Origin: a virus
Taxonomy: Duplodnaviria > Caudoviricetes
Virus record (IMG/VR): IMGVR_UViG_3300027600_000049
Coordinates: 1 to 59,110 of that record
Length of the DNA stretch: 59,110 nucleotides
Reading direction: 5' to 3' (one strand)
Both the position numbers and the translations under genes were made by a program. This document shows, in pieces, positions 2,455 through 58,803 of this stretch. The notes under the pieces are model-generated. The model was not told where the DNA came from, searched no databases, and saw only the letters and a list, made by a program, of their open reading frames with translations. Each line of letters starts with the position of its first letter. Position 1 is the first letter of the stretch.

Positions 2455-3249
2455 ATGTTTAACATAGAACTAATTAGCATCGACAAGGGAACACAGTCAC
2501 GGGTAGCCATCAGCCAGGAAACTGTTGATGATTACTCAAGGCAGATGGAAGATGGGGCCAAATTTCCCCCGGTCATAGTCTTCCATGATGGAGTGGAATA
2601 CTACCTAGCGGATGGTTTCCACCGCTACTTTGCCAATCGCAAGCTTAAGAATGACAGCATTGACGTAGACATTGTTAAGGGTACGCTGCGGGAAGCTATT
2701 TTCTATAGCTTGAAGGCCAACAAGGCGCACGGCTTACGTCCAAGCAACGCCGATAAGCGCAAATCCGTAATCATCATGCTCAAAGATCACGAGTGGGTAA
2801 AGTGGGCTGATCGTCAAATCGCTACGCATTGCGGTGTTTCCCATGTGTTTGTAGCCAAAGTGCGCAAAGAAGTGTCGGGCGGTAAGGCCCAGACAACCCG
2901 CAAGTACAAGGGTAAGGGTGGTAACGTTTCCACCTTCACCAACCGCCAACCCCAGGAGCCGGAGCCGGATGCCCCTGTCTATGACCAAAAGCAGGAGATG
3001 ATGGAGGCTTTGGTGGCTGAGAACGAGAAGCTATCAGAGCAGCTAGCCATAGCCACCATCGATGGTACGGCTGAAGAAAAGGACTTGGCAACCACCATGA
3101 TCGGTGAGTTGAAGGAAGAAATCCGTCTGCTCCAGATCGAATTGGTATCAGTCAAGAAGAGTCGGGATATGTTTCAGTCTGAGAATGCCCAGCTAAAGAA
3201 GCAGGTGGCAATGATGCAAAAGAAGTTGAAGGCAGTGGAAAATGCTTGA
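2455..3249 (+). CDS. ParB/Srx-like N-terminal domain + HTH + coiled-coil protein
   Basis: FPPVIVF...YYLADGFHR ParB/Srx motif; HTH-like WADRQIATHCGVSHVFVAKVR; C-terminal coiled coil. Confidence 0.85.
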   Translation: MFNIELISIDKGTQSRVAISQETVDDYSRQMEDGAKFPPVIVFHDGVEYYLADGFHRYFANRKLKNDSIDVDIVKGTLREAIFYSLKANKAHGLRPSNADKRKSVIIMLKDHEWVKWADRQIATHCGVSHVFVAKVRKEVSGGKAQTTRKYKGKGGNVSTFTNRQPQEPEPDAPVYDQKQEMMEALVAENEKLSEQLAIATIDGTAEEKDLATTMIGELKEEIRLLQIELVSVKKSRDMFQSENAQLKKQVAMMQKKLKAVENA

Positions 3250-4714
3250 GCTACGAGGCTACCAGACCGATACGCTGGAGGCTTTGCGCCAGGGGTTTGC
3301 AGCAGGTGCCAATGCTCAGATACTCTACGCCCCCACGGGGGCGGGCAAAACAGAAATGGCTATAGCTTTGCTAGAAGCCACCCGAGCGAAGGGCAACAGG
3401 GCAGCAATGCTACTGGACAGGATCATTCTGTGCGATCAAACCAGTCAGCGGCTGGAGAAGTACCACATTGACCACGGCGTGATGCAGTCAGGTCATTGGA
3501 GATACAGGCCGCATGAAAAGATCCAGGTCTGTTCGGCGCAAACCCTTGAAAGAAAGGGTGAATTTCCAGGTCTAAACCTTTTGATCGTTGACGAGGCGCA
3601 TCAAACCCGGCAGCAGACAATGGAGTTCATCAAGAACAACCCTGAAATCCGTGTGATCGGGCTGACCGCTACGCCATTCACCAAAGGTTTGGGCAAGACA
3701 TACACCAATGTTGTCTCAACAGTCACGACCAAGCAGTTAGTTGAGCAGAATGTGCTTGTGCCTTTGAAGGTGTTCATCTCCAAAGAGATCGACATGACCG
3801 ATGCCAAGAAGGTAGCGGGCGAGTGGAGTCAGAAGGAAGCCACCACCAGGGGCATGAAGATCACTGGCGACATTGTTGCTGAGTGGATTAAGAAGACCCA
3901 TGAGATATTTAAAAAGCCGGTAAAGACCATCGTGTTCTGCTCGGGCGTGAATCATGGCGCTGACCTAGCGAGGAAGTTTGCAGAGCAGGGGTATAACTTC
4001 ATAGCTGTAAGCTACAGGGACGATGACACATTCAAGCGGGATGTGATTGAGGACTTCTCCAAGCCTGACACAGAGATTCATGGGCTGATCGCCACGGACA
4101 TACTGACCAAAGGCTTTGATGTGCCGGATGTTCTGATCGGTATATCAGCTAGGCCGTTCAGTAAATCCCTGTCCTCCCACATCCAGCAGATGGGTCGCAT
4201 CATGCGCGGCTGCGAGGGGAAAGAGTTTGCCGTTTGGCTGGATCACAGCGGCAATTACCTGCGGTTCCGGCAGGATTGGGAAGATGTTTTTGAGCATGGC
4301 GTAGACAAGTTGGATGATGGCAAGGAGAAAACCAAGCCAGAACCCACCGACAAAGAGAAGGAAGCGGCAAAGTGTCCGGCTTGTGGATCGTTGTGGCCCT
4401 CCAGTTCGGATGCTTGCAGTAACTGCGGTCATGTTCGGGAACGAAAGAACAAGGTAGTCGAGTTGCCTGGGGAGTTGGAGGAGTTAACCGGAACCATGTC
4501 CAAGGCAGATAAGCAGGAGTGGTGGTCAATGCTGCAATGGTATGTTCAGACCCAGGGCTGGTCGCATGGTCGGGCGGCTCATGTCTACAAAGAGAAGTTT
4601 GGGGTGTGGCCCAGGGCTTTGTACGACAAGCCTGTCTATCCAAGCCAGGAGATTGTCAAGTTCATCGACAAAGGTATCAGGGCGTACATCCGGCAGATGA
4701 AGAAGGGAAGATGA
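3242..4714 (+). CDS. SF2 (DExH) helicase with a C-terminal Zn ribbon
   Basis: APTGAGKT, DEAH, TAT and QQMGRIMR motifs; CPACG/CSNCG. Confidence 0.95.
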   Translation: MLELRGYQTDTLEALRQGFAAGANAQILYAPTGAGKTEMAIALLEATRAKGNRAAMLLDRIILCDQTSQRLEKYHIDHGVMQSGHWRYRPHEKIQVCSAQTLERKGEFPGLNLLIVDEAHQTRQQTMEFIKNNPEIRVIGLTATPFTKGLGKTYTNVVSTVTTKQLVEQNVLVPLKVFISKEIDMTDAKKVAGEWSQKEATTRGMKITGDIVAEWIKKTHEIFKKPVKTIVFCSGVNHGADLARKFAEQGYNFIAVSYRDDDTFKRDVIEDFSKPDTEIHGLIATDILTKGFDVPDVLIGISARPFSKSLSSHIQQMGRIMRGCEGKEFAVWLDHSGNYLRFRQDWEDVFEHGVDKLDDGKEKTKPEPTDKEKEAAKCPACGSLWPSSSDACSNCGHVRERKNKVVELPGELEELTGTMSKADKQEWWSMLQWYVQTQGWSHGRAAHVYKEKFGVWPRALYDKPVYPSQEIVKFIDKGIRAYIRQMKKGR

Positions 4715-5523
4715 TGGAGTTGGTAGATTATTGTCGGGCGCATGGGATCGTCATTGATTTCCCACCACCCATCGGATACTGGAAACGTTACCACACAGTC
4801 GATCATCCAAAGAAGCGCAATGGTGCTGTGAAATTCATGGGCGACCATGCTTTTGTGCAGAACCATGCTACCGACACAGAGGTTTCCATATGGAAGCCTG
4901 ACTCAATCAGTGAAGGTGCCCGCAGGGATTACGCCCAGCTTGTGCAAAAAGCAGAGCAGGACAAGATTCGGATGCAGGAAAAGGCAGCGATCAAGGCAAA
5001 GGATCTGCTGCAAGGTTCGTTGTTGGGTAGGCATCCATACTTCAAAGCCAAGGGTTTTCCCGATGAAGAGGGGTGGGTCAATGACAAAAGGCTAATCATT
5101 CCGATGCGAGTGGATGGGGTGCTGGTCGGATGCCAAGTGATCGATGCGGATGGCGAAAAGAAGTTTCTGTCAGGGCAGAAGAGTTCGGGCGCATCGTTTG
5201 ACTTCGACAACAAGGGCAAGCATTTTCTGTGTGAGGGGTACGCTACAGGGTTGTCGTTGCGTCATGCGCTGCGGTGCTTGAAGCGCAATTATGTGATCCA
5301 TGTGTGCTTTTCGGCTGGAAATATGCTCAAGCTGGCGCAGAAATTCGGAGGGTATGTCATTGCCGACAACGATGAGAGCGGGACGGGGGAGAGGGTAGCA
5401 AAGCAAACAGGGCTACCTTATTGGATGAGTGATGTGGTGGGAGAGGATGCGAATGATGCACATCAAAGGCTTGGGCTATTTAAATTTACCCAAAGCCTGA
5501 CCCGATCATTGCCTATACGATGA
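4711..5523 (+). CDS. Toprim-domain primase-like protein
   Basis: CEGYATG, FSAGN, IADND and DAND Toprim motifs; coupled to the helicase. Confidence 0.9.
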   Translation: MMELVDYCRAHGIVIDFPPPIGYWKRYHTVDHPKKRNGAVKFMGDHAFVQNHATDTEVSIWKPDSISEGARRDYAQLVQKAEQDKIRMQEKAAIKAKDLLQGSLLGRHPYFKAKGFPDEEGWVNDKRLIIPMRVDGVLVGCQVIDADGEKKFLSGQKSSGASFDFDNKGKHFLCEGYATGLSLRHALRCLKRNYVIHVCFSAGNMLKLAQKFGGYVIADNDESGTGERVAKQTGLPYWMSDVVGEDANDAHQRLGLFKFTQSLTRSLPIR

Positions 5524-5718
5524 CATGGTGCAAGGCTCGACATACAGGGTTTCAGAGAATTTCTCCAGTATGGTCAAGCCTTGCAGTATCTCCATGCCCA
5601 GGTGAAAAGAATGTACGCCTTGCCCTATGTATTCGGTTCGGACGGTAACAATACCTTCCTCATCCTCCATTAGGAACACGGCGAACAAAGTCTTTGCTGG
5701 TTTTTGTTTCATTGACAC
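5506..5718 (-). CDS. hypothetical protein
   Basis: ORF track; last gene of the leftward cluster. Confidence 0.55.
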   Translation of the reverse strand: MSMKQKPAKTLFAVFLMEDEEGIVTVRTEYIGQGVHSFHLGMEILQGLTILEKFSETLYVEPCTMSSYRQ

Positions 5719-5721
5719 AGT

Positions 5722-6242: not shown

Positions 6243-6250
6243 GGTGTACC

Positions 6251-6742
6251 TTAAAACAAGCAGACAGTGCAGCTAGAGAAGTTTGCACGATAGGTTATGG
6301 TGGCATCGTCCTCACGGATTTTCTTGCCCGCAGCCTTGGTCATGTTTACATTCTGTTCTTTGATCGGGCGCAGCTTTGAATCGGTATAGTCAAAGTCCAA
6401 CACCTTGCGGGTTTTCTTATCGATGGTAACGATTCCATTGCCGCATCCCTTGTACTTTGCCTCCAGCAAAGGCTTGGGGATTGAGAATGTATCTTTCAGT
6501 GCTGCTCTGTTCTGGATGCTTTGGGCAATGGCTTTGTCCACATATTTTTGAAGCACATCGTCCGGTTGCTCTGCTGATAGACCATCATCGTACAGATACA
6601 TTGCCAGAAGGCGGGGGAAATTGGTAACTTCCAATCCCTCCAGAACAAACCCACCCATCATCGACATGATGCGCTCGGCATCATTCATCAAAACGATGCT
6701 CATTACATCGATTGCATTCCATTTTTTGCGAAAATCTTCCAT
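6251..6742 (-). CDS. hypothetical protein
   Basis: ORF track; start MEDFRK after an AGGAG RBS. Confidence 0.65.
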   Translation of the reverse strand: MEDFRKKWNAIDVMSIVLMNDAERIMSMMGGFVLEGLEVTNFPRLLAMYLYDDGLSAEQPDDVLQKYVDKAIAQSIQNRAALKDTFSIPKPLLEAKYKGCGNGIVTIDKKTRKVLDFDYTDSKLRPIKEQNVNMTKAAGKKIREDDATITYRANFSSCTVCLF

Positions 6743-6743
6743 T

Positions 6744-8189: not shown

Positions 8190-8201
8190 GATATTTTTCC
8201 T

Positions 8202-8375: not shown

Positions 8376-8386
8376 GATGTGTTCCT

Positions 8387-8758: not shown

Positions 8759-8768
8759 GATGTGTTCC

Positions 8769-9071
8769 TTAGTTGTGGTGGGCAAGGGCTGCGGGTCGGA
8801 TGCTGTCAAGCATGGCAAGGGCTGAGGTGTGCTGCCGTTCGACTGCGGGCTTGGTGCATCGTGCGGATTCGGAAATAAGCTGCTGGCTGAAATCTTTGAA
8901 TGGTTCGTACACAAAGAAAATGCCATCTCGTTTGCCGACCTTGGCAGTGGTGGTAATGTTTCCATCATGCCGTTTCATGGTGGTCAGGCAGATGTGCAAG
9001 TTATCGGCTAGCGGGGTCATGGTTTCTGCCATCCAGGTGCCGTAATGTGATTTTTTAATCGTGGTGTTCAT
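8769..9071 (-). CDS. hypothetical protein
   Basis: Start MNTTIKK after AGGAACACC. Confidence 0.7.
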   Translation of the reverse strand: MNTTIKKSHYGTWMAETMTPLADNLHICLTTMKRHDGNITTTAKVGKRDGIFFVYEPFKDFSQQLISESARCTKPAVERQHTSALAMLDSIRPAALAHHN

Positions 9072-10293: not shown

Positions 10294-10745
10294 GCGGGCA
10301 CCTGTTCAAGCGTGGCGGCGGCTTCCGTCATGGCTGCTGCCTGGGCTGCAAGGCGGGCGGCTCGGGTCTTTAATTCGGCTCGGTAATGTTTCCAGGTGTC
10401 GGTGTCGTAGTGCTTTGAATAGTATTTTTCAGCGGCTGCGCTGGTGCTGGTGCATTCGTCAAAGCTGGGGCGAAATACGGCGCACCCGAATAAATCAAAA
10501 ATGACAACCCGAAAACCTCGGCGGCTTTTGTCGTGTTCGGTTGCTACACTTTCGACAATCTTAAAAAATAGTCCGTCATCGGTGGGGCGGGCTGAAATAA
10601 TCCTAGAACCGAAAAAGCGGAGGGTGTCATCGTTCACATAATGGGTGCGTCCGTTTAGGTTCTGCTGTGCGTTGCGTTTTGGGTCGCTGGATTTGTGTCC
10701 AAATAATTCGACATTGGCGGCGGTGCTGATAGTCTTGGGGCTCAT
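10290..10745 (-). CDS. hypothetical phage early protein
   Basis: ORF track; TLRFFGSRI motif; RBS present. Confidence 0.75.
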   Translation of the reverse strand: MSPKTISTAANVELFGHKSSDPKRNAQQNLNGRTHYVNDDTLRFFGSRIISARPTDDGLFFKIVESVATEHDKSRRGFRVVIFDLFGCAVFRPSFDECTSTSAAAEKYYSKHYDTDTWKHYRAELKTRAARLAAQAAAMTEAAATLEQVPA

Positions 10746-13288: not shown

Positions 13289-13367
13289 GTAAGGTGGAAA
13301 CGTTACCACCTTACGCAAAACTTACGTAAGGATGTTGTAAGGTGGTAACGTTTCCACCGAAACTTAC
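13289..13367. repeat. two 16-bp palindromic sites plus GTAAG/CTTAC repeats
   Basis: GTAAGGTGGAAACGTTACCACCTTAC (13289-13314), CTTACGTAAG (13321-13330), GTGGTAACGTTTCCAC (13342-13357). Confidence 0.9.
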
Positions 13368-23063: not shown

Positions 23064-23732
23064 ATGAAGAAGATGAAACGTTTCGCTGGTCCAGAGGGAA
23101 GCATGATCGGTGGCGCAGAAGATGAGCGCCCTGCGCCTACTGGTATGTCTGAAGCAACGCAACTTGCGCCGGAAGTTACTGTAATTAACGAAAAGACGGG
23201 CGTAAAAGGCGACAAAGGAAATCGCATCGTGACAAAAGAAGAATTAAAAGCTTCTGGTTTGTCATTGCGTGACTTTTTAAACAAAGAGCGTGGCTTAACT
23301 CGCCGTGGTGAATCTGCTCCGGCAAAACCTGCCGCCAAAACTGAAAAAGCTCCTGCAAAACCTGCTCCCAAAGCGGAGGAACCAGTCAAATCTGCACCTA
23401 AAACATCGGAAACTAAGCGTGGGTTTGGCCCATACGGCGTATTTGCTGGGCCTAGCGATGAAGAAAAAGCGGCAACATATGCTCGTTATGAAGAGAATCG
23501 CAAGAAAATGGGTGCCACGGCTGCGCCAAGTGGTTCAGGCAAAATAGCGGATTCTGATTATGCAAAGTCTGTGCGATCTTCACAGGCTGCTAGTGCTGAT
23601 AGCGGGCCGCTTGGTAAGCGTATTCGTGAAGCTCTGGGCTCATCCTACAAAACTGGTGGAAGCGTTTCCAAGGCATCTAGTCGTGCCGATGGTATTGCTC
23701 AGCGTGGTAAAACTCGCGGAAAGATGTGCTAA
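23064..23732 (+). CDS. basic low-complexity protein with a GG...RADGIAQRGKT C-terminal motif
   Basis: AGGAG RBS; C-terminus shared with neighbouring genes. Confidence 0.75.
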   Translation: MKKMKRFAGPEGSMIGGAEDERPAPTGMSEATQLAPEVTVINEKTGVKGDKGNRIVTKEELKASGLSLRDFLNKERGLTRRGESAPAKPAAKTEKAPAKPAPKAEEPVKSAPKTSETKRGFGPYGVFAGPSDEEKAATYARYEENRKKMGATAAPSGSGKIADSDYAKSVRSSQAASADSGPLGKRIREALGSSYKTGGSVSKASSRADGIAQRGKTRGKMC

Positions 23733-47150: not shown

Positions 47151-50100
47151 ATGCCCACTTTACAAGAAGTCCTTGCTGACCCAAACTATGTAAATGCAAA
47201 CTTTGCTACCAAGCAAGCCATTTTCAATAAGTATGCGTCACAGGACACCAACTACTCCCAGGCCAATGATGCAACCCGCTTTGCCATCCGGCAAAAGTAT
47301 GGGGTAGAAACACCCGTAGCCCAGGAAACGCCTACGGCCAAACCTATTCCTCAAAGGACATACGGCGAAGCTGCCAAGGACGTAGGCGGCAAGTTTGTTT
47401 CTGGCATTGGGTCGTTGGTACAGTTACCGGGCCAGTTGTATGGCTTGGCTACTGGAGACTTCTCTAAAACTGGTCTGTTAGGGGCCGGTGAGGACATTAA
47501 GAAGTACGGAGAAGAGATGCTGTCTCCGGCGCTTAAGGCTAAAGAAGAAGCCAGGGCGCAGAAAGTACAAGAAGCTGAGAAGACTGGGCAGATTGCTGCT
47601 GGTGCTACAGCGTTTGGTGAGACTATCAAAGACCCAGCCTTGCTCGTTGGGTTCTTGGTGGAACAAATTCCACAGATTATCCCTGCCTTATTAACAGGTG
47701 GCGGTACTGCTGCACTTACTGCAGCCGGTATTACTGCACGGGAGGCCGCTGCATTGGTGGCAAGTGGCGCTGCCAAAGAGGCGGCTCAGACTGCGGCTAA
47801 GCAGATCGCTGCCAAGAAGGCTGGTGAGCTTGGTGTTAAGGCTGCTGTTGGTACCGGTGCTGTGCAGCAAGGCGCTGATATAGGTGCCGGTGCATATGAA
47901 AACATCTACAAAGAAGCGATAGCTCAGGGTATGTCTGAGCCTGAAGCTGCTCAGAAAGCTTTGGGATTAGCGCGGGCTGCTGGTGCATCTGGTGCTTTGA
48001 TCTCACTGTTGGCCCAGAGACTTCCCGGCGCACGCACCTTGGAAGAAGCATTTGCTGGCGTACCTGGGAAAACTGGTCGCATTCTGGGTGCTGGTAAGGG
48101 TGCTTTGGGTGAGTCCGTAAGCGAGATGGCTGAAGAGGGTGGCGGTAAATTCACCCAGAATTTAGCTATGCGTGAGGTCAATCCTGAGCAGGATCTGCTT
48201 GCTGGTGTTGGTCAAGCTGCTGGTATGGCTGCTATTGGTGGCGGTGGCATGGGTGCCATTGCTGGTGCAGCACGGCGTCCCGGCACCAAGGTGGAAACGT
48301 TACCACCCGTTACGGGAACGGGGAACCCTCCTACAGACAGTCCAGTTGTAGGCACAACCACGGTAAATGTTGGCGGCAAAGATAGCGTAAAAGTTAATAA
48401 AGCGGATGGAAGTAGCGATATTGATGGCGTCCAAGTCACGCCGCCCACAGAAACGGCACCGGGCGAACCTGCTGCCGTGGAAACGTTACCACCTGCCGAT
48501 CAAGGTGTACCCCCTCCAGCCGAGATCCCTGGTGCGCCTACCGGTGTGGAAACGTTACCACCTGCGGAAGCACCTCCTGCCGCTACACCTCCTGCGCCGG
48601 AGGCTGTTGCGCCTATGGAGCCAGAAGCGCCTGAGTTTGTTCCCATTGAAACTGAGCAAACCAAGCCCAGGGGCGTGGCAAAGGTTGAATTTACCCCTGA
48701 AGAAAAGCAAGAAATAAAAGAGGTGGAAGCCTCGCTGGTTCAGATTAACAAAGAAATAAGAGAAGCTCAGGCTGAAAATGGAAGCCTGTTTAGTATGCTC
48801 AAAGGGAAGCTGGTAGAGCGGCCCGGTGCATTTTCACTTTCCGACATTGACAAAAACAAAAAGAGTTTAAAGCAGCTGTATAGCGCAAGTGGGCAGGGTG
48901 TTCTATTAGAGGACATGGTGGCCGATGGCGAATTGGATGCGTTTTTGCCGGGTGAAAATCGTGCAGTTATTAACGGGGAACAAAATGAAAACTTTGATGC
49001 CCAAGCGGCAATAGAGCATATTGCCGAAAAACTGCGAAACGGCGATTACAGAACCGAATATGCTGCCGCAAAGCTGAAGACTGCTCAAAATCAAAAAGCA
49101 GAGATACAGGCGCAGCTTGAAAAATTGAAATCTGTTCCAAGCACAAACTTAGAACTTAGTGAGATCGCTGAGCAGCCAAAAGGTGAGGCCACAGAAGTAA
49201 GCTTAAAAGATCTTGAGGATGAAGCTCTTTCTGCTGGCGTAGATGTTGATCGCTTGAGAGAAGAATTAAGCGACAGTATGCCCAGTGCATCTATTGAAGA
49301 ATTTAAGGGTGCATATCGCAATGCTTTGTTTGCTGCGACAAGCGGTTCGCAGTCATACACCATTGATAACAGCGAATACACCATAGACGAAATTGCAACA
49401 TACATCAGCGAAGGATTTACCGAAGATGAAATCAACGAACTTATCGCCCAAGCCGAGGCCGACCAAGCAGCAATTGCAAAAGCTGCTCCAATCGCTAAGC
49501 CCAGAACAAAGGGTGGCGGTACTAAAAAAATCCCTCCAGAAGAAAAGCCAACAGTAGGCGCAGGTCTTCCCGCAGACTTGCCAGAGCCAAAAGACTTTAT
49601 AGCAAAGAAATCCTTAGAACAGATTGCCAAAGAAATAAATGGCATGACCGCCACCCAGCTTGCGCAGTGGGCTATTGATAATGCTCCCAACAGTGCAGCC
49701 AAAGCAATTGCTGAAAAAGTTTTTGCGCGGGTTAAAGAGTTGGATGAAAGAGGATTCTTTAAAAAACCTGTAAATGTAATGAACAGGGACGATCTTAAAT
49801 TCAGAGGAAAATTTAGCTACAACATTGGAAAAGACTACCGTTTCGGATATTTCACATTTGCCGGTTTAAAGAATGGCAAAGAACATAGAGGTACAGGCAC
49901 AAGATATATAACCATATTGCATGAGCTGTTGCATTCGGTTACTTCCGCAACATTAGACCCATCATTCTTGGGTAAAAAAAGCAAAGAAGCTAATGATTTG
50001 CAAGTTGTTCTTGATAAAGTCAAGAAACAAATGAAGGCAGATCAAGCTGCTGGTAGAATACATCCCATTCTTGATCGCATCAAGGTTAACAAAACCAATA

Positions 50101-53100
50101 CCGTAAAAGACATTATGGAATTGGTGTCGTGGGGTTTAACAGACCCAGACTTCCAAGACTACTTGTCCAAGGTAAAGGTAGGCAATACCAATGCTTTGAC
50201 TCGCATGGTTGAGATATTCAGGAAGCTATTGGGCTTGGATGCCCAGTATGAAACTGCTTTGGATACGGTTGTCAGAACTGCCGACACTATTCTTGACACT
50301 CCCTTTGAGCAGATTGAAAAAGAGCTTGGCCCCATTGGTACTAAGAAGCCTGCTGCGCCACCCGCCACAACAAAGCCTGCTGCAAATGCTCCTCCCAAGT
50401 TGACTGCGCCTAAAGGGTTCAAGTTAAAAGAAGGCCGCAATGAGCAGGTTGTGCTTGCTGCACGAGAGCTAAAGGCTGGAAACATTACCAAGCAACAGTA
50501 TGATGAGTATGTAAATTACTACACCCCCGTCAGAGAAATACTTGGCGACAAACTAGAAAAGCCAATTAATGATGACTTGATGCGGTTAATTTTGGTAAAC
50601 AAGATTCCGCAGAAGAAAGATCCTAAGCTTGTTAATGCCTCTATTGCAGACGGCACAAAAGTTGGCTTGCGAATGGACATTCCTGCGCTGGAGTGGGGAA
50701 GAGCCAATGGAGTTAATGGCAGCGTAGTGTCTATCCACGAAGGCAAGCCCGCAACCAATGCGGCGGCTGGAAAGAATATCAGCTACAAGTCGGCTGGATT
50801 TTTGAAGAATGCTGTGTTTGCCATCCGCTCTGAAGAGAAGGCGTTTGGTATTGCTCAAATGCAAGAGGGGCGTGCGGGACAAAAAGCACCGCAACAGACT
50901 ATTGAAGGTACTTGGGTCAACATGACGCCAGATGAAATCTTCAAGATGGTCAAAGAAAAGCTGAACGATCCTGCGTGGTCACAGGTCAGCCTTGATCCAT
51001 TGCGTCATTCATTCTTTTACGATAGATCGAACACCAAGCCTGTTGTGTCAGCCGATGAGGTGTTGCAAGTGGGTCGTTTTGTCTTGGCTAAGAACGTCAA
51101 GTATGCGCCTAGAGAAAAGTTTCTTTACGAAGAAGAAAAATCTTCTGAAGAAAGCGTAGGCGACAAAGTAAAAGCCACGGTTTCTACTGCTTTGCAAAGG
51201 CGTGAGCCACTGAATCCAGCAGACTTTAAAGGTGTTCCGCAAGAATTCCTTGACAAAGCAAATCCTGTCTATGCGCCTCAGCATAAGACAATCATTCAGC
51301 GCCTTGAGGAAATGAAAGACCGCTTCTGGCAGCGGCTTTCGCAAGGTATTGCTGACCAGTTCCGCACCATCAAAGAGTACAGCGAAGACGCCTACATTCT
51401 TGCGCGTATGTCCAAGACTGTGGACGGCGCACTTGAAGGTCTGATGTTCTTTGGTCAAGTATTCAATGACGGTGGCGCACTGAATATTAAACAAGGCACC
51501 AAGGGGATGATTGACATTCTCAAGCCGTTAGGTAGCGAAGTTGGCCGCTATCAGATGTGGATTGCCCTGAACCGCGAGGCAGATTTACCGCCAGAAAAAC
51601 GTACTGTATTTATTGACAAGAAGACGGGCGAAGATGTAATGCCCTATTTGGTTACAAATAGGAACACTCTTATTGATGGGGATCTTGACGGCAAGCCCCG
51701 TGAGCAGGTCTATAAAGCTGTGCGCATAGAGATGAACAAGCTGAACCGTTCTGTGCTGAAGGTTGCGCTGGACTCTGGGTTAATTGACTCCACGGCCAAT
51801 GCAATTGACCGGCTGCGTGAGCGCATCAATGTTGCTCAGAACAATGAAAACTTGTCTGACGCCAAGAGAGAAAAAGAGATTGAAGAGCTTGAAGGCCAGA
51901 TTGAGGAGTTGAAGAATAACCCAATCGGCTATGAGCGGTTCATTGAGGACATTAACTACATCCCGTTCTATCGTGAAATGGAAGATGGTGACGTTTCCAA
52001 GGTAATGACCGCTACCGGCTTGTCAAACCAGCACTTCTCCAAGGCTTTGGAAGGTGGTGTTAGCCCGTTTGCCGATCTGATGGAAAACACTCTGCGTAAT
52101 TGGAGTCACATCCTGTCTGCTTCTATGAAGAATCAGGCTGCAGCCGCTACGCTGAATGCTGCCGAGAAGCTAGGCGGTGCAGAGCCAAACCTCAAAGTGC
52201 CGTACTACATGATTGACGGCAAGGTGTACTACCGCAGCAATGATGAGATGGTTGGCGATGGGTCTGTTCGGTCATGGATGACTGAATCCGGCAAGGGCAC
52301 AGTCAAGGCGATGGTCGATGGTCAGCCTGTGTATTACCAAGTGCTTGATCCTTTGCTGCTGGATTCAATTACTTCCATTGGGTACATGGGGCCAAAGTCT
52401 AAGTTCCTGGATGTGGCTAGGGGATTCAAGAATGTCCTCCAGTTTGGCGTGACTATCTCTCCTGCGTTCAAGATCCGCAACTTGTTCCGTGACTCTATCT
52501 CTGCGATGGCTGTCAGTGACCTAAAGAAGAATCCATTTGCTAACGTGGTCAACGGCTGGGCTTTGAGCAACAAGGACAATCCTGCCCATATGTCTGCCTT
52601 GGCTGGTGGTGCTTTGTTTAACTTTGGCTCCATTGTTGAGGGAGATCAGGCTGCGCTGGTGAAGCGGCTGATCAAGATGGGCGTCAAAGAAGAACACATT
52701 CTGGATACGCCCGCAAAGATTAAGAACCAACTTAAAAAGGCGTGGGACAAGTACCAAGAATTTGGTAACAAGTCTGAATCTGCAAACCGCATGGCGCTGT
52801 ATCAACAGATGAAAGACAAGGGCTACGGGCACTTGGAGGCTTCCTACTACGCCAGAGACTTGCTTGATTTCTCTATGCAAGGTTCATGGCCTGCCTTCCG
52901 CCTGCTGACCCAGGTAATTCCATTCTTGAATGCTCGTACACAAGGTCTGTATAAGCTGGGCAGGGATGGTATCAATCCTACTGTGCGGGTGTTCTATAAC
53001 TCCATTACTGGTAAGCCAATTGAGCAGACAGATAAGCAAAAAGCTGAGTCCTTTGGAATCGTTACCGGCGCTGTCTGCCTTGCTTCGCTTGCTCTGTACT

Positions 53101-54005
53101 TTGCATTCAAGGACGATGAAGAGTTTAAAAAGCGGGATGAGTGGGATCGGGATAACTTCTGGTGGTTCAAGCTGCCTGGGATGGAATATGCCCTGCGTAT
53201 CCCCAAGCCATTTGAGATTGGTGCATTTGGTACGTTGGTTGAGCGCACAGCAGAACAAATCTTTGACCAAGGCTCAGAGGGCAAGCAGTTTGAGCAATCA
53301 TTGAAGCGCATGATCACAGACACCTTTGCGGTTAACCTGCCGCAATTCTTCAAACCGCTGGTGGATCTGTATGCAAACAAAGATTCATTCACTGGTGCGC
53401 CGATTGAATCTGCTGGCATGGAGCGTCTGTCCAAGCAAGAGCGTGCCACTGACACGACAAGCCCCTTGGCTATTGCCCTGGGTGGTTTGACCAAGGTAAT
53501 GGTTCCAGGCGAGGGGCTATCCCCTGTGCAGGTGGACTACGCCATCAAGGCTTACTTTGGCTGGCTGGGCGGCACGATTGCTGAGACATCGCACTATGCG
53601 GTCATGCCGTTCAAAGATGGCGCATATCCTGATACCAAGTGGGTGGACAAGGTGAGTGTTGGATTTATCAAGTCATTGCCATCAAACCAATCCAAGTACG
53701 CCACTGCTTTCTATGAGAACAACAAAGAGATCAGTCAGGCGTATGCTGATATGCGGCACTATGCAGAGATCGGGGATTCCGCTAAGGTACTCAAGATTCT
53801 TGAAGAGAAGCAAGACAAGATTGGACTCGCCAAGTTCTATGACAAGACGGCAAAGAACATGGCTAAGGTCAGATTGCAGATCCGCATGATCACCAATGAC
53901 ACCTCTATGGACGGTGCCACCAAGCGTGAAGAGATTGACCGCTTGAAGTCGCTGATCTCAATGATGGCTGAGCAGGCAGAAGATACCCGCAAAGCAATGA
54001 AGTAG
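47151..54005 (+). CDS. large polyvalent/ejection protein with a zincin-like HExxH and LPD38-like C-terminus
   Basis: 2284 aa; TILHELLH; ARDLLDFS...IPFLNA..QG...RDNFWW...RIPKPFEIG. Confidence 0.8.
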   Translation: MPTLQEVLADPNYVNANFATKQAIFNKYASQDTNYSQANDATRFAIRQKYGVETPVAQETPTAKPIPQRTYGEAAKDVGGKFVSGIGSLVQLPGQLYGLATGDFSKTGLLGAGEDIKKYGEEMLSPALKAKEEARAQKVQEAEKTGQIAAGATAFGETIKDPALLVGFLVEQIPQIIPALLTGGGTAALTAAGITAREAAALVASGAAKEAAQTAAKQIAAKKAGELGVKAAVGTGAVQQGADIGAGAYENIYKEAIAQGMSEPEAAQKALGLARAAGASGALISLLAQRLPGARTLEEAFAGVPGKTGRILGAGKGALGESVSEMAEEGGGKFTQNLAMREVNPEQDLLAGVGQAAGMAAIGGGGMGAIAGAARRPGTKVETLPPVTGTGNPPTDSPVVGTTTVNVGGKDSVKVNKADGSSDIDGVQVTPPTETAPGEPAAVETLPPADQGVPPPAEIPGAPTGVETLPPAEAPPAATPPAPEAVAPMEPEAPEFVPIETEQTKPRGVAKVEFTPEEKQEIKEVEASLVQINKEIREAQAENGSLFSMLKGKLVERPGAFSLSDIDKNKKSLKQLYSASGQGVLLEDMVADGELDAFLPGENRAVINGEQNENFDAQAAIEHIAEKLRNGDYRTEYAAAKLKTAQNQKAEIQAQLEKLKSVPSTNLELSEIAEQPKGEATEVSLKDLEDEALSAGVDVDRLREELSDSMPSASIEEFKGAYRNALFAATSGSQSYTIDNSEYTIDEIATYISEGFTEDEINELIAQAEADQAAIAKAAPIAKPRTKGGGTKKIPPEEKPTVGAGLPADLPEPKDFIAKKSLEQIAKEINGMTATQLAQWAIDNAPNSAAKAIAEKVFARVKELDERGFFKKPVNVMNRDDLKFRGKFSYNIGKDYRFGYFTFAGLKNGKEHRGTGTRYITILHELLHSVTSATLDPSFLGKKSKEANDLQVVLDKVKKQMKADQAAGRIHPILDRIKVNKTNTVKDIMELVSWGLTDPDFQDYLSKVKVGNTNALTRMVEIFRKLLGLDAQYETALDTVVRTADTILDTPFEQIEKELGPIGTKKPAAPPATTKPAANAPPKLTAPKGFKLKEGRNEQVVLAARELKAGNITKQQYDEYVNYYTPVREILGDKLEKPINDDLMRLILVNKIPQKKDPKLVNASIADGTKVGLRMDIPALEWGRANGVNGSVVSIHEGKPATNAAAGKNISYKSAGFLKNAVFAIRSEEKAFGIAQMQEGRAGQKAPQQTIEGTWVNMTPDEIFKMVKEKLNDPAWSQVSLDPLRHSFFYDRSNTKPVVSADEVLQVGRFVLAKNVKYAPREKFLYEEEKSSEESVGDKVKATVSTALQRREPLNPADFKGVPQEFLDKANPVYAPQHKTIIQRLEEMKDRFWQRLSQGIADQFRTIKEYSEDAYILARMSKTVDGALEGLMFFGQVFNDGGALNIKQGTKGMIDILKPLGSEVGRYQMWIALNREADLPPEKRTVFIDKKTGEDVMPYLVTNRNTLIDGDLDGKPREQVYKAVRIEMNKLNRSVLKVALDSGLIDSTANAIDRLRERINVAQNNENLSDAKREKEIEELEGQIEELKNNPIGYERFIEDINYIPFYREMEDGDVSKVMTATGLSNQHFSKALEGGVSPFADLMENTLRNWSHILSASMKNQAAAATLNAAEKLGGAEPNLKVPYYMIDGKVYYRSNDEMVGDGSVRSWMTESGKGTVKAMVDGQPVYYQVLDPLLLDSITSIGYMGPKSKFLDVARGFKNVLQFGVTISPAFKIRNLFRDSISAMAVSDLKKNPFANVVNGWALSNKDNPAHMSALAGGALFNFGSIVEGDQAALVKRLIKMGVKEEHILDTPAKIKNQLKKAWDKYQEFGNKSESANRMALYQQMKDKGYGHLEASYYARDLLDFSMQGSWPAFRLLTQVIPFLNARTQGLYKLGRDGINPTVRVFYNSITGKPIEQTDKQKAESFGIVTGAVCLASLALYFAFKDDEEFKKRDEWDRDNFWWFKLPGMEYALRIPKPFEIGAFGTLVERTAEQIFDQGSEGKQFEQSLKRMITDTFAVNLPQFFKPLVDLYANKDSFTGAPIESAGMERLSKQERATDTTSPLAIALGGLTKVMVPGEGLSPVQVDYAIKAYFGWLGGTIAETSHYAVMPFKDGAYPDTKWVDKVSVGFIKSLPSNQSKYATAFYENNKEISQAYADMRHYAEIGDSAKVLKILEEKQDKIGLAKFYDKTAKNMAKVRLQIRMITNDTSMDGATKREEIDRLKSLISMMAEQAEDTRKAMK

Positions 54006-54022
54006 TGGAAACGTTACCACTA
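54003..54022. repeat. palindromic site joining two convergent stop codons
   Basis: TAGTGGAAACGTTACCACTA. Confidence 0.9.
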
Positions 54023-56377: not shown

Positions 56378-56379
56378 GG

Positions 56380-56814: not shown

Positions 56815-56856
56815 GTTGTACTCCTGTGCTGGTAATACAACCATTATAGACCCGTT

Positions 56857-57162
56857 CTAATTAAAAGGTATGTCTTGGTCATCAATAACCTGCTGCCGTG
56901 GCTTCTCCTGGCGTGGCGGGACATATGGGTTGTCCTTTGGCTTGGGCTTGTAGTTGTTCCAAGACATACGAAACCATTCGCCGTATTGGCCGCTCATCTT
57001 CCACGCCCCCAGCTTGATCACGATGTCATCGGAATCTGTTTCTTCCAGCAGTGTGCGCAGCGCAGACCTGTCCATAGTCAACTCGCCCACCATGTCGGGC
57101 TTGTTGGGTGCGTCCTTGTACCTGTTTGCCGATAGTTTTCCAGAATTAGGGTACTGTGCCAT
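56857..57162 (-). CDS. putative single-stranded DNA-binding protein
   Basis: PD..G...AW core; acidic DDQDIPF tail; adjacent to Erf. Confidence 0.7.
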   Translation of the reverse strand: MAQYPNSGKLSANRYKDAPNKPDMVGELTMDRSALRTLLEETDSDDIVIKLGAWKMSGQYGEWFRMSWNNYKPKPKDNPYVPPRQEKPRQQVIDDQDIPFN

Positions 57163-57832: not shown

Positions 57833-58697
57833 TTTTTTCCTTCAGATATTTTTGGTATTGAGAACAGAAGCCGCTGACCTGACAATACTTCTCGCAGCGT
57901 GTGCGTTCGCCCGGTCTGACTTCAATTGCATAGCCCTTAAGCTGGCCCAGTGAAGCTTGTGCCTCCTCCAGTGTCTTGTGAACACTCTTGGCACGTACAC
58001 CATCAATCTTTTTGACGGCATAGGTTGTTTGCTTTTCCCACATCTCCTCTGGTGTGCAGTCGGTGATCTCGCCTTGAGTCTCGCTTTCAAAGTAAGCGTG
58101 GCTGTGCAGGTTGATCCTGTCTTTAACATACGCCTCTCGCTGCTCAAACGACCATAGAGGAATGTCAATCGTGGCGATGGGGGATGATGGGTAGTTTTCT
58201 TTAGCGGTGTCTCTAGCGACCCAATCACGCACGATGGCAATGATCTGGAGTTTCTTGACAGGCTTGTTCTTTACCTTCTCCACCAGCCATGCGTAAACGT
58301 TTAGCTGGTTGTGCCAATCTTGTTTCTCGTTCATCACTGACCATGCGCCTGTCACCTTGTAGTCGGAGATGATGATTCCATCGTCTTCAACTTCTTGTAG
58401 GTCAATCGCACCGCTCAGCTTCCATCCATCGAATTCAGTGAAGATGCGTTCTTCAACAACGTGGTGGGTGTCCTTACCATGCTCCAAGATGTTGTGAACG
58501 GCAGAGCCGAACAGTGACCAGACCATCTCACTGGCATCAGTCTCAATCTCATCCCAATGCTTGCGCTTGAGTTGAACGATACGAGGGCTGTTGAGCAATT
58601 CTGTCGCTGATATGTTTGCAGCCCCCTTGCTGTAGGTGGGCCGATGTATAACGTTAACGAACGTCTGTGGCAGTCCAAATTTGTTTGTGAGTTTCAT
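57819..58697 (-). CDS. PD-(D/E)xK exonuclease (Cas4/RecB-like)
   Basis: GSAVH.ILE, GAID...DYK and QLNVY motifs; C-terminal C...C.....C; AGGAG RBS. Confidence 0.88.
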   Translation of the reverse strand: MKLTNKFGLPQTFVNVIHRPTYSKGAANISATELLNSPRIVQLKRKHWDEIETDASEMVWSLFGSAVHNILEHGKDTHHVVEERIFTEFDGWKLSGAIDLQEVEDDGIIISDYKVTGAWSVMNEKQDWHNQLNVYAWLVEKVKNKPVKKLQIIAIVRDWVARDTAKENYPSSPIATIDIPLWSFEQREAYVKDRINLHSHAYFESETQGEITDCTPEEMWEKQTTYAVKKIDGVRAKSVHKTLEEAQASLGQLKGYAIEVRPGERTRCEKYCQVSGFCSQYQKYLKEKNDSV

Positions 58698-58725
58698 GTT
58701 TCTCCTGTCTGTTGGTTGAGCGTGT

Positions 58726-58754
58726 AATGTACCTGATGAATTGTGTGGTGTCAA
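58726..58754 (-). promoter_or_regulatory. sigma70 promoter for the recombination cluster
   Basis: TTGACA-N17-TACATT on the minus strand. Confidence 0.8.
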
Positions 58755-58803
58755 CAGGTGTGTTATAACTGGTATAAATTAACTTCCCTGGAAACGTTAC
58801 CAC

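What the first reader, a model, noticed from the sequence alone, without database searches (positions are those of the whole stretch)
2455..58803. Genome-wide 16-bp palindrome plus orphan ParB-like protein: candidate phage ParB/parS-like system
Seen: the core GG(A/T)AACGTT(A/T)CC, usually as GTGG(A/T)AACGTT(A/T)CCAC, occurs at least 13 times. The 16-mers start at 2918, 4779, 13294, 13342, 29462, 29582, 38607, 44342, 48291, 48477, 48546, 54005 and 58788. One-mismatch copies lie near 6423, 8950, 10380, 15277, 23656, 26051, 36997, 50476 and 51985. At uniform composition ~0.01-0.02 exact cores are expected in 59 kb. Inside genes the motif is read in all three phases (GNVS/GNVT, WKRYH, VETLP/AVTLP), so selection acts on the DNA rather than the peptide. 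One copy sits in the ParB-like gene just after its HTH. Known: ParB and Noc are CTP-dependent clamps loaded at 16-bp palindromes (parS, NBS), which are often intragenic. Inference: the 2455-3249 protein loads on these sites to coat, organise, protect or regulate the phage chromosome. No ParA is seen in the window, and the gene heads the helicase-primase operon. Alternative binders are the LexA-like protein or a host LacI-family regulator (the AAACGTTT core resembles LacI/PurR operators).
Basis: partly seen in the sequence, partly recalled or inferred. Interest (0 to 1): 0.88.

Follow-up and report, generated by a model that had tools for sequence, protein, structure and literature searches.

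The report
Phage ParB-like protein and its palindromes
A probably lytic 59-kb phage carries about twenty copies of one 16-bp palindrome that appears to be the binding site of its own ParB-like DNA-binding protein, and related phages carry matched protein and site variants, as if each had a private DNA address code.

Summary
The core GGWAACGTTWCC occurs 13 times (0.02 expected), or 23 times with up to one mismatch (0.31 expected). Nine cores lie in coding sequence, against a mean of 0.21 in 300 codon-preserving shuffles.

The 2455-3249 protein misses Pfam ParB_N, but a profile search and a predicted structure place it with ParB, Noc and KorB. It has a ParB/Srx N-domain, an HTH and a coiled-coil tail.

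Five otherwise unrelated motif-rich phage records share only this protein and the adjacent helicase with the window. I also took 80 viral loci chosen only by ParB-like similarity. Of the 26 with recognition-helix start SH[V/P][F/Y][V/I], 22 carry the core, against 4 of the other 54. Other helix types go with other half-sites: SHTFV with GGCAAC, SHTY[V/I] with GTAAAC and GGCAAC, SAE[F/Y]V with TGCAAC.

The LexA-like protein and a host LacI-type regulator are disfavoured. No ParA or tyrosine integrase was found.

Not shown: actual binding, which nucleotide is used, and the biological role. My best guess for the role is a KorB/Noc-like genome-wide loader or regulator tied to the helicase-primase module. 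I rate it a new variant of a known kind, in a large uncharacterised family (9,917 representatives at E<=1e-30).

The parts
2455..3249 (+). ParB-like protein, 264 aa. ParB/Srx N-domain (about 1-95, with GxxR as G54-F-H-R57), HTH (helices 119-126 and 130-140, recognition helix starting S129-H-V-F-V133), disordered linker 144-177, coiled coil 178-263.
   Evidence: phrog_1033, 4.6e-16; ParB 7o0n, E 7e-8; Foldseek top hits ParB, Noc, KorB
3242..4714 (+). SF2 helicase (ResIII/DEAD, RadD-like) with a four-Cys zinc ribbon. It lies next to or close to the ParB-like gene in every genome examined.
4519..5523 (+). Primase-like ORF (weak Toprim match, PHROG DNA primase). It hosts the site at 4779.
2918..2933 (.). 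Site, exact 16-mer, inside the ParB-like gene (linker, residues 155-160).
4779..4794 (.). Site (CTGG...CCAC) in the primase ORF. A site at the same residue position (aa 89-90) occurs in G001 and G016.
13294..13309 (.). Site, exact 16-mer, intergenic upstream of the large terminase gene. It sits inside a 26-bp palindrome GTAAGGTGG...CCACCTTAC.
13342..13357 (.). Site, exact 16-mer, 48 bp from the previous one and in the opposite A/T orientation, 20 bp before the TerL start codon.
29462..29477 (.). Site with palindromic core GGTAACGTTACC and divergent flanks, read as GNVT.
29582..29597 (.). Site with palindromic core, 120 bp from the previous one. The pair is conserved in G001.
38607..38622 (.). 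Site with palindromic core in ORF 36495-38984.
44342..44357 (.). Site in ORF 43693-45615. A site at the same position (aa 213-219) occurs in G001, G002 and G003.
48291..48306 (.). Site, exact 16-mer, first of three in the 2284-aa ORF.
48477..48492 (.). Site, exact 16-mer, second of three.
48546..48561 (.). Site, exact 16-mer, third of three. G001 has three and G016 has two in the same part of the ORF.
54005..54020 (.). Site, exact 16-mer, at the junction of the convergent + and - gene blocks.
58788..58803 (.). Site in the divergent early intergenic region. It starts 9 nt after a TATAAA box and abuts the ATG of the GT2 gene. It is conserved in G001 and G002.
6425..6436 (.). Core with one mismatch.
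8952..8963 (.). Core with one mismatch.
10382..10393 (.). Core with one mismatch.
15279..15290 (.). Core with one mismatch in the portal gene. Exact cores lie at the same position (aa 127-135) in G002, G016 and G011.
23658..23669 (.). Core with one mismatch. Exact cores lie at the same position (aa 200) in G002 and G011.
26053..26064 (.). Core with one mismatch.
36999..37010 (.). Core with one mismatch.
50478..50489 (.). Core with one mismatch.
51987..51998 (.). Core with one mismatch.
53055..53066 (.).

Best explanation
The 16-bp near-palindrome (G/C)TGG(A/T)AAC|GTT(A/T)CCAC is the cognate DNA site of the phage's own orphan ParB-family protein (2455-3249). I infer that a dimer, probably held together by the C-terminal coiled coil, places one HTH on each TGGWAAC half-site. 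Residues 129-133 at the start of the recognition helix would read the outer half-site bases. The roughly 20 dispersed sites would then act as loading or operator sites over the whole 59-kb genome. They include one site in the protein's own gene, one in the divergent early promoter region, a pair in front of the terminase gene and many inside late genes. This resembles KorB on plasmid RK2 and Noc on the Bacillus chromosome. The kept GxxR phosphate motif suggests that an NTP controls the N-domain; which NTP cannot be told. The gene always travels with an SF2 helicase, usually with a primase as well, and the phages look lytic. I therefore think the role is to organise, mark or regulate the phage chromosome during replication and expression, not plasmid-type partition. 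What is shown: enrichment, DNA-level selection, fold, helix/half-site co-variation and conserved site positions. What is inferred: physical binding, dimer geometry, NTP switching and the biological role.
For: Enrichment: 13 cores against 0.02 expected; 23 with up to one mismatch against 0.31; 9 coding cores against a mean of 0.207 and a maximum of 2 in 300 codon-preserving shuffles. Fold: profile against PDB gives ParB 7o0n at E 7e-8; Foldseek top hits are ParB, Noc and KorB over about 140 columns covering N-domain plus HTH. G54 and R57 (GxxR), Q14 and R16 are invariant and N89 and H92 nearly invariant in 14 homologues. Unrelated backbones: of 91 window proteins, only the ParB-like protein (34-42% identity) and the helicase hit all five motif-rich unrelated records (G017, G022, G023, G018, G024 with 23, 23, 21, 12 and 8 cores). 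Test not selected on the motif: 80 loci chosen by ParB-like similarity. Helix class SH[VP][FY][VI] has 22 of 26 loci with a core against 4 of 54 for the rest (Fisher p 6e-12). Collapsed to distinct helix strings this is 14 of 17 against 4 of 42 (p 1e-7). In total 56 cores in 348 kb against 5 in 748 kb. Specificity matrix: SHTFV goes with GGCAACGTTGCC (14 in 103 kb), SHTY[VI] with GTAAACGTTTAC, GGCAAC and mixed sites, SAE[FY]V with TGCAACGTTGCA (7 in 88 kb). Sister contrasts on a tree built without the HTH: L297, L279 and L280 (SHPFV, one core each) against L313 and L315 (SHTFV, none); G024 (THPFV, 8) against G010 and G006-G008 (none). Eight of 9 motif-bearing genomes have a core inside the ParB-like gene: 9 cores against 2.1 expected, at four different residue positions. 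Sites sit at orthologous positions in proteins only 38-60% identical. Helix positions 130 and 131 are hypervariable (2.67 and 3.23 bits) between conserved V128, S129, V133 and R137 in 144 representatives.
Against: No binding experiment exists. Co-variation in related genomes is partly shared ancestry: the independent-pairs test found only 3 pairs on well-supported branches and has no power (median p 0.5). Four class-A loci have no core (L261, L291, L311, L334; 6.6-20.8 kb pieces), and 4 non-class-A loci have 1-2 cores. The helicase is co-inherited with the ParB-like gene, so presence/absence cannot exclude it, and I did not test its co-variation. Pfam ParB_N does not match, and the canonical GERRxRA box is reduced to DGFHRYFA. 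About 80% of cores are intragenic, which does not fit a simple promoter-operator role. In the window itself the spacing is no more even than random (CV 1.00). Some relatives (G006-G008, G004) have longer, spaced palindromes of a different architecture whose binder is unknown.
Confidence: 0.8

Rival explanations
1. The ParB-like protein does bind the sites, but it works as a replication initiator or helicase loader. The dispersed sites would be multiple entry points where it recruits the adjacent RadD-like helicase and the primase. The type-specific helix/site pairs would resemble initiator/origin pairs of lambdoid phages.
For: The order ParB-like, helicase, primase recurs in the window, its relatives, G024 and GenBank record MW202545. 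G022 has ERF, ParB-like, then helicase. A site lies inside the binder's own gene in 8 of 9 genomes; that origins lie inside initiator genes in lambda and SPP1 is recalled, not from a call.
Against: Twenty or more origins in 59 kb would be unusual. Sites are conserved inside late structural genes. No AT-rich unwinding region or iteron array was looked for or seen.
Confidence: 0.2
2. The ParB/Srx protein is a site-specific enzyme or enzyme activator. It would nick or help modify DNA at the palindromes, as the phage ParB that activates a thymine dioxygenase does, or DndB-type systems do, rather than act as a clamp or regulator.
For: According to the abstract of PMC13229309, a phage ParB homologue activates its cognate 5mYOX on double-stranded DNA. 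The window encodes a PAPS-reductase-like protein, and G022 encodes a Mom-like protein.
Against: That ParB lacks a DNA-binding domain, whereas this one has an HTH. No dioxygenase was found among the ORFs scanned. The PAPS-reductase gene occurs in only 2 of 18 genomes compared (G000 and G005), so it is not part of the conserved module.
Confidence: 0.08
3. The LexA-like winged-helix protein (12900-13271) binds the palindromes.
For: It lies directly upstream of the paired sites at 13294 and 13342. It has a weak LexA_DNA_bind match (E 7e-4, 19.7 bits, below the 23.7 cut-off).
Against: It has no tblastn hit in 5 of 5 unrelated motif-rich records (G017, G022, G023, G018, G024). It is present at 36-61% identity in 6 of 6 relatives without enrichment (G004-G010; G009 has a single core).
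Confidence: 0.03
4. A host LacI/GalR-family regulator binds the sites. The TGnAAnCGnTTnCA resemblance is recalled, not from a call.
For: The half-site TGGAAAC fits the recalled LacI-family consensus.
Against: The motif changes with the phage protein's helix among close relatives. It occurs in phages of 40%, 49%, 52% and 68% G+C, which are unlikely to share a host regulator. No LacI-type protein was found in the ORFs scanned.
Confidence: 0.03
5. The repeats are by-products of repeated peptides (GNVT, VETLPP) or of recent duplications.
For: Three of the four palindromic cores encode GNVT, and the three copies in the giant ORF all encode VETLPP.
Against: The codon-preserving shuffle gives 0.207 against 9 observed. 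The flanks of the copies are unrelated. Three reading phases are used and four copies are intergenic.
Confidence: 0.01

Closest known systems
KorB of IncP plasmid RK2
   Same: It is a ParB-fold protein that binds palindromic operators on a mobile genome and is known as a regulator (sliding clamp and repressor). Foldseek matches KorB structures 8qa8 and 8qa9 at E 2e-5. The clamp and repressor role comes from the title and start of the abstract of PMC11790492 in the search listing. That RK2 has 12 OB sites, some of them intragenic, is recalled and not from a call.
   Different: KorB has the partner IncC (a ParA), KorA and TrbA, and full CTP-binding motifs. Here there is no ParA, no known clamp-locking partner, a reduced Box II (DGFHRYFA), a coiled-coil C-terminus, and a phage that is probably lytic.
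Noc (nucleoid occlusion protein) of Bacillus
   Same: It is an orphan ParB paralogue without ParA. It is a top Foldseek hit (7ol9 and 7ng0, E 1e-6). That its 16-bp palindromic binding sites are scattered over the chromosome, many inside genes, is recalled and not from a call.
   Different: Noc is chromosomal, has canonical CTP motifs and a membrane-targeting N-terminus (recalled), and arose by duplication of ParB (passage of PMC12704722). The phage protein is far outside Pfam ParB_N.
Chromosomal or plasmid ParB with parS
   Same: The domain order is the same: ParB/Srx N-domain followed by an HTH. The site is a 16-bp palindrome. A site lies inside the parB-like gene itself; that this is also true of the Bacillus spo0J gene is recalled.
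   Different: There is no ParA and no ParA-binding motif at the N-terminus (sequence). No canonical C-terminal dimerisation domain was detected. Only 2 loci turned up in one genome each of 185,579 species, and no tyrosine integrase was found, so there is no sign of a plasmid-prophage lifestyle.
Phage ParB activators of thymine dioxygenases (5mYOX-ParB)
   Same: These are phage-encoded orphan ParB-fold proteins with cognate-pair specificity (abstract of PMC13229309).
   Different: They lack an obvious DNA-binding domain and act through an enzyme partner. This protein has an HTH and cognate DNA sites, and no dioxygenase was found.
Stoperators of cluster A mycobacteriophages and C1 operators of P1 (recalled)
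   Same: One phage-encoded binder has many dispersed sites, including intragenic ones, and specificity diverges between related phages.
   Different: Those binders are immunity repressors of temperate phages, not ParB-fold proteins. Here no repressor or tyrosine integrase was found.

Membership tests
ParB-CTPase / ParB-Srx fold superfamily | ParB/Srx N-terminal fold | tested here: met
   Profile A1 against PDB: ParB 7o0n E 7.3e-8, sulfiredoxin 6ky4 E 3.6e-7, Spo0J 1vz0 E 1.1e-4. Foldseek: ParB, Noc, KorB, PadC and Srx, all at probability 1.00. Model mean pLDDT 79.4.
ParB-CTPase / ParB-Srx fold superfamily | P motif GxxR (Box II), whose arginine is needed for NTP binding (passages of PMC12704722) | tested here: met
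   G54 and R57 are invariant in 14 homologues; the sequence is DGFHR.
ParB-CTPase / ParB-Srx fold superfamily | Match to Pfam PF02195 (ParB_N) at the curated cut-off | tested here: not met
   No hit even at E<=10 or in a six-frame search of the record at E<=1. Only PHROG phrog_1033 'ParB-like partition protein' matches, at 4.6e-16.
Canonical CTP-dependent ParB clamps (ParB, Noc, KorB) | Full GERRxRA arginine patch and ENxxR Box III | tested here: not met
   GERRWRA aligns to DGFHRYF/LA, so one of three arginines is kept (alignment). Box III reads A-N-x-x-H-G, with N89 and H92 nearly invariant.
Canonical CTP-dependent ParB clamps (ParB, Noc, KorB) | CTP binding and hydrolysis, with N-domain gate closure | not testable with these tools
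   Passages of PMC12704722 state that neither sequence inspection nor AlphaFold3 reliably predicts NTP specificity.
Canonical CTP-dependent ParB clamps (ParB, Noc, KorB) | HTH DNA-binding domain directly after the N-domain, recognising a roughly 16-bp palindrome | tested here: met
   Helices 119-126 and 130-140. Foldseek alignments of about 140 columns span both domains. Helix/half-site co-variation. Physical binding was not tested.
ParABS partition system | Partner ParA (Walker-type ATPase) | tested here: not met
   PF13614 gives 0 matches in the record while all 14 control genomes match. None was seen in the 55 ORFs scanned with Pfam (47 of the window, 8 of relatives). The record is 94% complete, so a gene in the missing part cannot be excluded.
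ParABS partition system | Low-copy plasmid or prophage lifestyle that needs segregation | tested here: not met
   No tyrosine integrase (PF00589). Only 2 related loci, both on MAG contigs, in the genome collection. Serine integrases and protelomerases were not searched specifically.
LacI/GalR operator bound by a LacI-family repressor | A LacI-type HTH protein encoded by the phage, or a site that stays constant within a host range | tested here: not met
   No such domain in the ORFs scanned. The site varies with the phage ParB-like helix.

The most novel reading that the evidence does not exclude
A large, uncharacterised family of phage orphan ParB-fold proteins forms private 'self-address' systems. 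Each phage lineage would evolve its own recognition helix and a matching set of about 20 dispersed, positionally conserved palindromes. An NTP-gated ParB-like clamp would then load only on that phage's DNA and cover it. This would mark self DNA for the linked helicase-primase and recombination machinery, or shield or silence it, during lytic infection. The specificity would diversify as in immunity or incompatibility groups.
Probability: 0.25. Interest if true: 0.9.

Novelty: new variant of a known kind. Interest (0 to 1): 0.72.

Why it matters
ParB-fold NTP switches are being recognised well beyond chromosome segregation (KorB, Noc, VirB, phage enzyme activators). This finding adds a very large, mostly metagenomic phage family: 9,917 cluster representatives at E<=1e-30. 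Pfam ParB_N misses the window's member, so it would probably be missed by a survey seeded with that model. For this family the DNA partner can be read straight from the genome. The natural matrix of helix variants and half-site variants is a ready-made specificity code for a ParB-type HTH. It predicts single-residue swaps, such as position 131 V/P against T, that should retarget the protein. It also raises a testable question about why probably lytic phages keep about 20 positionally conserved binding sites inside their structural genes.

Tried and rejected
Near-identity search of the first 25 kb against cultured phages found one 50-bp hit only. tblastn of the protein against 50,697 phage records found 7 records, all below 42% identity over about half the protein. 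Some are annotated as StrR-like regulators or ParB-like nuclease domain proteins, so no characterised close relative exists there.

A strict perfect-palindrome census (6+6 bases, spacer 0-10) was too strict to find the variant motifs.

A search for a repeated translation-initiation word in the window (GATGAGTATG) gave nothing convincing: 8 matches against 3.1 expected, none at gene starts.

Complex prediction of helicase plus ParB-like protein returned 'no answer' (score 0.00, mark 0.32). It counts neither for nor against binding.

The independent-pairs test on the tree had only 3 pairs on supported branches and no power.

Evenness of spacing: the window, G001, G002 and G016 are not more even than random. 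G017, G022 and G023 are (CV 0.56-0.69; fraction of random placements at or below the observed CV 0.007-0.043), but they are one lineage.

Intergenic enrichment by a crude ORF caller: 29 of 139 cores touch non-coding DNA against about 8.8 expected. The caller misplaces some genes, for example it dropped the primase ORF.

Literature: three searches. For PMC13229309 I saw the abstract and outline. For PMC12704722 I saw passages only. For the other titles I saw search listings only. In what I read, no paper described a phage ParB-like protein with genome-wide cognate palindromes; the word stem 'palindrom' occurs 0 times in PMC12704722.

Not done: co-variation analysis of the helicase; a search for serine integrases or protelomerases; annotation of every late gene; identification of the host.

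Full report
THE RECORD. The window is a whole IMG/VR virus record of 59,110 bp. It is classed as linear and CheckV estimates it 94% complete. It has no close cultured relative.

Gene blocks:
- A rightward early block at 283-5968 holds small ORFs, the ParB-like gene at 2455-3249, a RadD-like SF2 helicase at 3242-4714 and a primase-like ORF ending at 5523.
- A leftward block of small ORFs lies at 5901-12083.
- A long rightward late block at 12233-54005 holds a TerS-like ORF, a LexA-like winged-helix ORF at 12900-13271, TerL at 13377, portal at 14875 and a 2284-aa ORF at 47151-54005.
- A leftward block at 54020-58754 holds a PAPS-reductase-like gene, ERF and a PD-(D/E)XK nuclease.
- A GT2 glycosyltransferase gene starts at 58804 and is cut by the end of the record.

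No ParA-type ATPase and no tyrosine integrase were found. Forty further window ORFs, mostly small early ones, gave no HTH family in Pfam.

GGWAACGTTWCC occurs 13 times against 0.02 expected. With up to one mismatch there are 23 against 0.31 expected. Seven of the 13 are the exact 16-mer GTGGWAACGTTWCCAC.

In 300 shuffles that permute synonymous codons within each gene, coding cores average 0.207 with a maximum of 2, against 9 observed. The DNA word itself is therefore under selection, not the peptides that host it. Four of the 13 cores lie in the roughly 3% of the record outside my curated ORF list:
- a pair 48 bp apart just before TerL (13294 and 13342);
- one at the convergent junction at 54005;
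- one in the divergent early region at 58788, starting 9 nt after a TATAAA box and abutting the ATG of the GT2 gene.

The site is slightly asymmetric. Nine copies are GGAAACGTTACC or its complement, four are GGTAACGTTACC and none is GGAAACGTTTCC.

THE PROTEIN. Pfam gives nothing for 2455-3249 even at E<=10. A six-frame search of the record with PF02195 finds nothing, and NCBIfam finds nothing. PHROGs gives 'ParB-like partition protein' at 4.6e-16.

A profile of 14 homologues hits ParB structures in the PDB (7o0n at E 7e-8, Spo0J 1vz0) and sulfiredoxins. An AlphaFold model (mean pLDDT 79.4) has this layout:
- an alpha/beta N-domain;
- two HTH helices at 119-126 and 130-140;
- a disordered linker at 144-177;
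- a long coiled coil at 178-263.

Foldseek ranks ParB (M. xanthus, Caulobacter, Bacillus), Noc and KorB first, with about 140 aligned columns covering the N-domain and the HTH.

The canonical GERRxRA box reads DGFHRYFA. The minimal GxxR P motif is invariant in the family (G54 and R57, with Q14 and R16; N89 and H92 nearly so). Passages of PMC12704722 say its arginine is required for NTP binding in this fold. The same paper says nucleotide specificity cannot be predicted from sequence or AlphaFold3, so I make no claim for CTP.

WHO BINDS THE SITES: COMPARATIVE EVIDENCE. There are five lines.

First, relatives found through TerL (597 of 599 candidates confirmed, best 80 kept) split. Of 15 longer records searched, 5 have the core at all: G001 14, G002 16, G003 6, G011 5, G009 1. 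Ten have none. Several of those ten are enriched for other words, such as GTGGAACTTGTTCCAC (9 copies in G010) and a 24-bp palindrome in G004.

Second, scanning all viral contigs for the exact 16-mer found phages with many copies. G017, G022 and G023 have 23, 23 and 21 cores in about 60 kb. The fragment G018 has 12, G024 has 8 at 68% G+C, and G016 has 10. I ran tblastn with 91 window proteins against 18 genomes.
- G017, G022, G023 and G018 share only the ParB-like protein (34-37% identity), the helicase (24-26%), a remote TerL match (26-29%) and, in two of them, a DUF6884 protein.
- G024 shares five proteins, including the ParB-like protein (42%), the helicase (41%) and the primase (29%).
- The proteins common to all five are the ParB-like protein and the helicase.
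- The LexA-like ORF hits none of the five, yet it is present in all six relatives that lack the enrichment.

Third, the alignment shows that all 9 motif-bearing genomes that contain the gene start their recognition helix with (S/T)-H-(V/P/A)-(F/Y)-(V/I). The six motif-less relatives read SVTLV, SQRFV, S(A/N/K)(M/A)TV or SHMTI.

Fourth, I ran a test that did not select on the motif. I took the 80 viral loci most similar to the ParB-like profile (554 of 598 candidates confirmed, best 80 kept; pieces of 4-21 kb). I read the helix from tblastn and counted cores.
- Class SH[VP][FY][VI]: 22 of 26 loci have at least one core, against 4 of 54 for the rest (Fisher p 6e-12).
- Collapsed to distinct 23-residue helix strings: 14 of 17 against 4 of 42 (p 1e-7).
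- Totals: 56 cores in 348 kb against 5 in 748 kb.
- Exceptions among class-A loci without a core: L261, L291, L311, L334.
- Non-class-A loci with 1-2 cores: L269, L289, L306, L324.

Fifth, other helix classes have their own enriched, ACGT-centred palindromes.
- SHTFV: 8 loci, 103 kb, 14 copies of GGCAACGTTGCC and 3 of the GGW type.
- SHTY[V/I]: 5 loci, 73 kb, 6 copies of GTAAACGTTTAC, 4 of GGCAACGTTGCC and 8 mixed.
- SAE[F/Y]V: 6 loci, 88 kb, 7 copies of TGCAACGTTGCA.
- The remaining classes have none or one of any of these.

Changes at helix positions 130-132 thus go with changes at the outer half-site bases, while the AAC|GTT centre stays. That is the pattern expected of a cognate protein and site pair.

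LIMITS OF THIS EVIDENCE. Related phages inherit gene and sites together. I built a tree from the N-domain only, leaving out the HTH (92 rows, 111 columns, poorly resolved). On it the class-A helix needs 12 changes on the best tree, of which only 3 are forced by well-supported branches. The independent-pairs test therefore has no power (median p 0.5).

The argument rests on three things: the unrelated backbones, the sister contrasts visible in that tree, and the multiple distinct helix/half-site pairs. The sister contrasts include L297, L279 and L280 against L313 and L315, L270 and G016 against L269, and G024 against G010 and G006-G008. The helicase always travels with the ParB-like gene, so presence/absence cannot exclude it. 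It has a conserved four-cysteine ribbon, and I did not test it for co-variation. No binding has been measured.

ANATOMY OF THE SITE SET. Site positions are conserved at orthologous places in proteins that have diverged to 38-60% identity:

| Host gene | Position | Genomes |
|---|---|---|
| ParB-like gene | aa 156-180 | G000, G001, G011 |
| Primase | aa 89-90 | G000, G001, G016 |
| Portal | aa 127-135 | G002, G016, G011; one-mismatch copy in the window at 15279 |
| ORF 43693 | aa 213-219 | G000-G003 |
| Giant ORF | aa 383-468 | three copies in G000 and G001, two in G016 |
| Region before TerL | intergenic | G000, G002 (G003, G011 and G016 have a core in the adjacent TerS or winged-helix ORF) |
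| Before the GT2 start codon | intergenic | G000, G001, G002 |

Eight of 9 motif-bearing genomes have a core inside the ParB-like gene itself. That is 9 cores against 2.1 expected, at four different residue positions in four lineages. In the window the copy sits in the disordered linker.

By a crude ORF caller, 29 of 139 cores in ten genomes touch non-coding DNA against about 8.8 expected. Most sites are nonetheless intragenic. Close pairs 45-126 bp apart recur. In the lineage of G017, G022 and G023 the sites are more evenly spread than random (CV 0.56-0.69; largest gap about 6 kb against about 9.5 kb). In the window and its near relatives they are not.

WHAT IT PROBABLY DOES. The nearest analogues in behaviour are KorB of RK2 and Noc. 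Both are orphan or regulatory ParB-fold proteins, and both rank among the top structural hits. That both have dispersed, partly intragenic palindromic sites is recalled.

Several features argue against plasmid-type partition:
- there is no ParA, no tyrosine integrase and no repressor;
- only 2 related loci, both on MAG contigs, turned up in a collection with one genome for each of 185,579 species;
- the gene is linked to a helicase and usually a primase in unrelated backbones.

These point instead to a role on the replicating or expressed phage chromosome. I put about 0.8 on 'this protein binds these sites'. Conditional on binding, I put about 0.4 on NTP-gated loading or spreading, about 0.35 on global transcriptional control, about 0.2 on helicase or primase recruitment, and about 0.1 on directing a nick or a modification. 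The last idea has a precedent in the phage ParB that activates a thymine dioxygenase (PMC13229309 abstract), but that protein has no DNA-binding domain and no dioxygenase was found here.

SIZE OF THE FAMILY AND NOVELTY. A profile search of 1.84 billion cluster representatives finds 26,795 proteins at E<=0.001, 18,539 at E<=1e-10 and 9,917 at E<=1e-30. The best 150 are mostly 250-300 residues and match end to end. In 144 of them the helix start takes 84 different five-residue forms. Positions 130 and 131 are hypervariable between conserved V128, S129, V133 and R137.

Cultured representatives are few and distant. The recent survey of the ParB-CTPase fold was seeded with PF02195 (passage), which does not detect this protein.

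I therefore rate this as a new variant of a known kind. It is ParB-fold and KorB/Noc-like in behaviour. It lies outside the canonical family by motif and by partner, it sits in phages that look lytic, and its natural specificity code can be tested directly.

Noticed in passing
window 13270-13376: The two sites before TerL are embedded in repeated GTAAG/CTTAC pentamers, at least four of each orientation. The first site forms a 26-bp palindrome GTAAGGTGG...CCACCTTAC. This could be a second binding element, for example for TerS or the winged-helix protein, or a pac-type element.
   Followed up: partly
G004 (L102) 8082-8190, 8981; L103 1564, 8822: A relative without the AACGTT motif has six copies of a 24-bp near-palindrome, (G)TAGAAATCATTAATCATTTCTA(C). 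Three are clustered between its TerS and winged-helix genes. Its ParB-like helix reads SVTLV.
   Followed up: partly
G010 (L119-L122); G007 (L112-L115); G006 and G008: G010 has 9 copies of GTGGAACTTGTTCCAC: the same outer bases with a different centre, and helix SHMTI. G007 has 7-8 copies of CAACATTAACAG-NN-GTTAAAGTTG. G006 and G008 are enriched for CAAC(T/A)GTAACAG. Whether the ParB-like protein binds these longer, spaced repeats is open.
   Followed up: partly
relatives L269-L332; G004 9944-13018: Many early genes in relatives are preceded by one long conserved translation-initiation word. It is AGGAGATCAGACGATG in several lineages (up to 28 copies in 92 kb) and AGGAGACCATCCGATG five times in G004. 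No equivalent was found in the window.
   Followed up: partly
window 54020-54859 (-): A PAPS-reductase-like protein matches only positions 154-398 of the 460-position phrog_424, so it lacks that family's N-terminal part. The gene is present in only G000 and G005 of the 18 genomes compared.
   Followed up: partly
window 58804-59110 and L090 13577-16280: The first gene of the rightward early operon is a GT2 glycosyltransferase cut by the end of the record. In relative G001 it is 250 aa and is followed by a class I SAM methyltransferase. There is no obvious Shine-Dalgarno sequence between the ParB-type site and its ATG.
   Followed up: partly
G009 (L124) 6069-6350: In G009 the ORF at the ParB-like position is only 93 aa and matches just the coiled-coil tail. 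This genome has a single core and no enriched AACGTT palindrome. Instead AGACGCGGCCA-type words are frequent (TGGCCGCG 17 times).
   Followed up: no
G002 (L094) 8493-8560: There is a tandem 12-bp repeat, CTACTGTTACAC, of 5-7 copies inside a late gene. It is probably a peptide repeat.
   Followed up: no
window 47151-54005: A single 2284-aa ORF hosts three exact sites and three one-mismatch sites. Its function was not examined.
   Followed up: no
L246 18858-19427 (G022): The unrelated motif-rich phage G022 encodes a Mom-family protein (E 1.8e-37) about 5.5 kb downstream of its ParB-like gene and 3 kb past the helicase, so its DNA may carry a base modification.
   Followed up: no
L338 (GenBank MW202545.1): A spring-water siphovirus has the same ParB-like, helicase and primase order. 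Its helix reads SQSFV, and it has its own palindrome around TCTGACTAGTCAGA, with its 10-base words counted 4 times each in 30 kb.
   Followed up: partly
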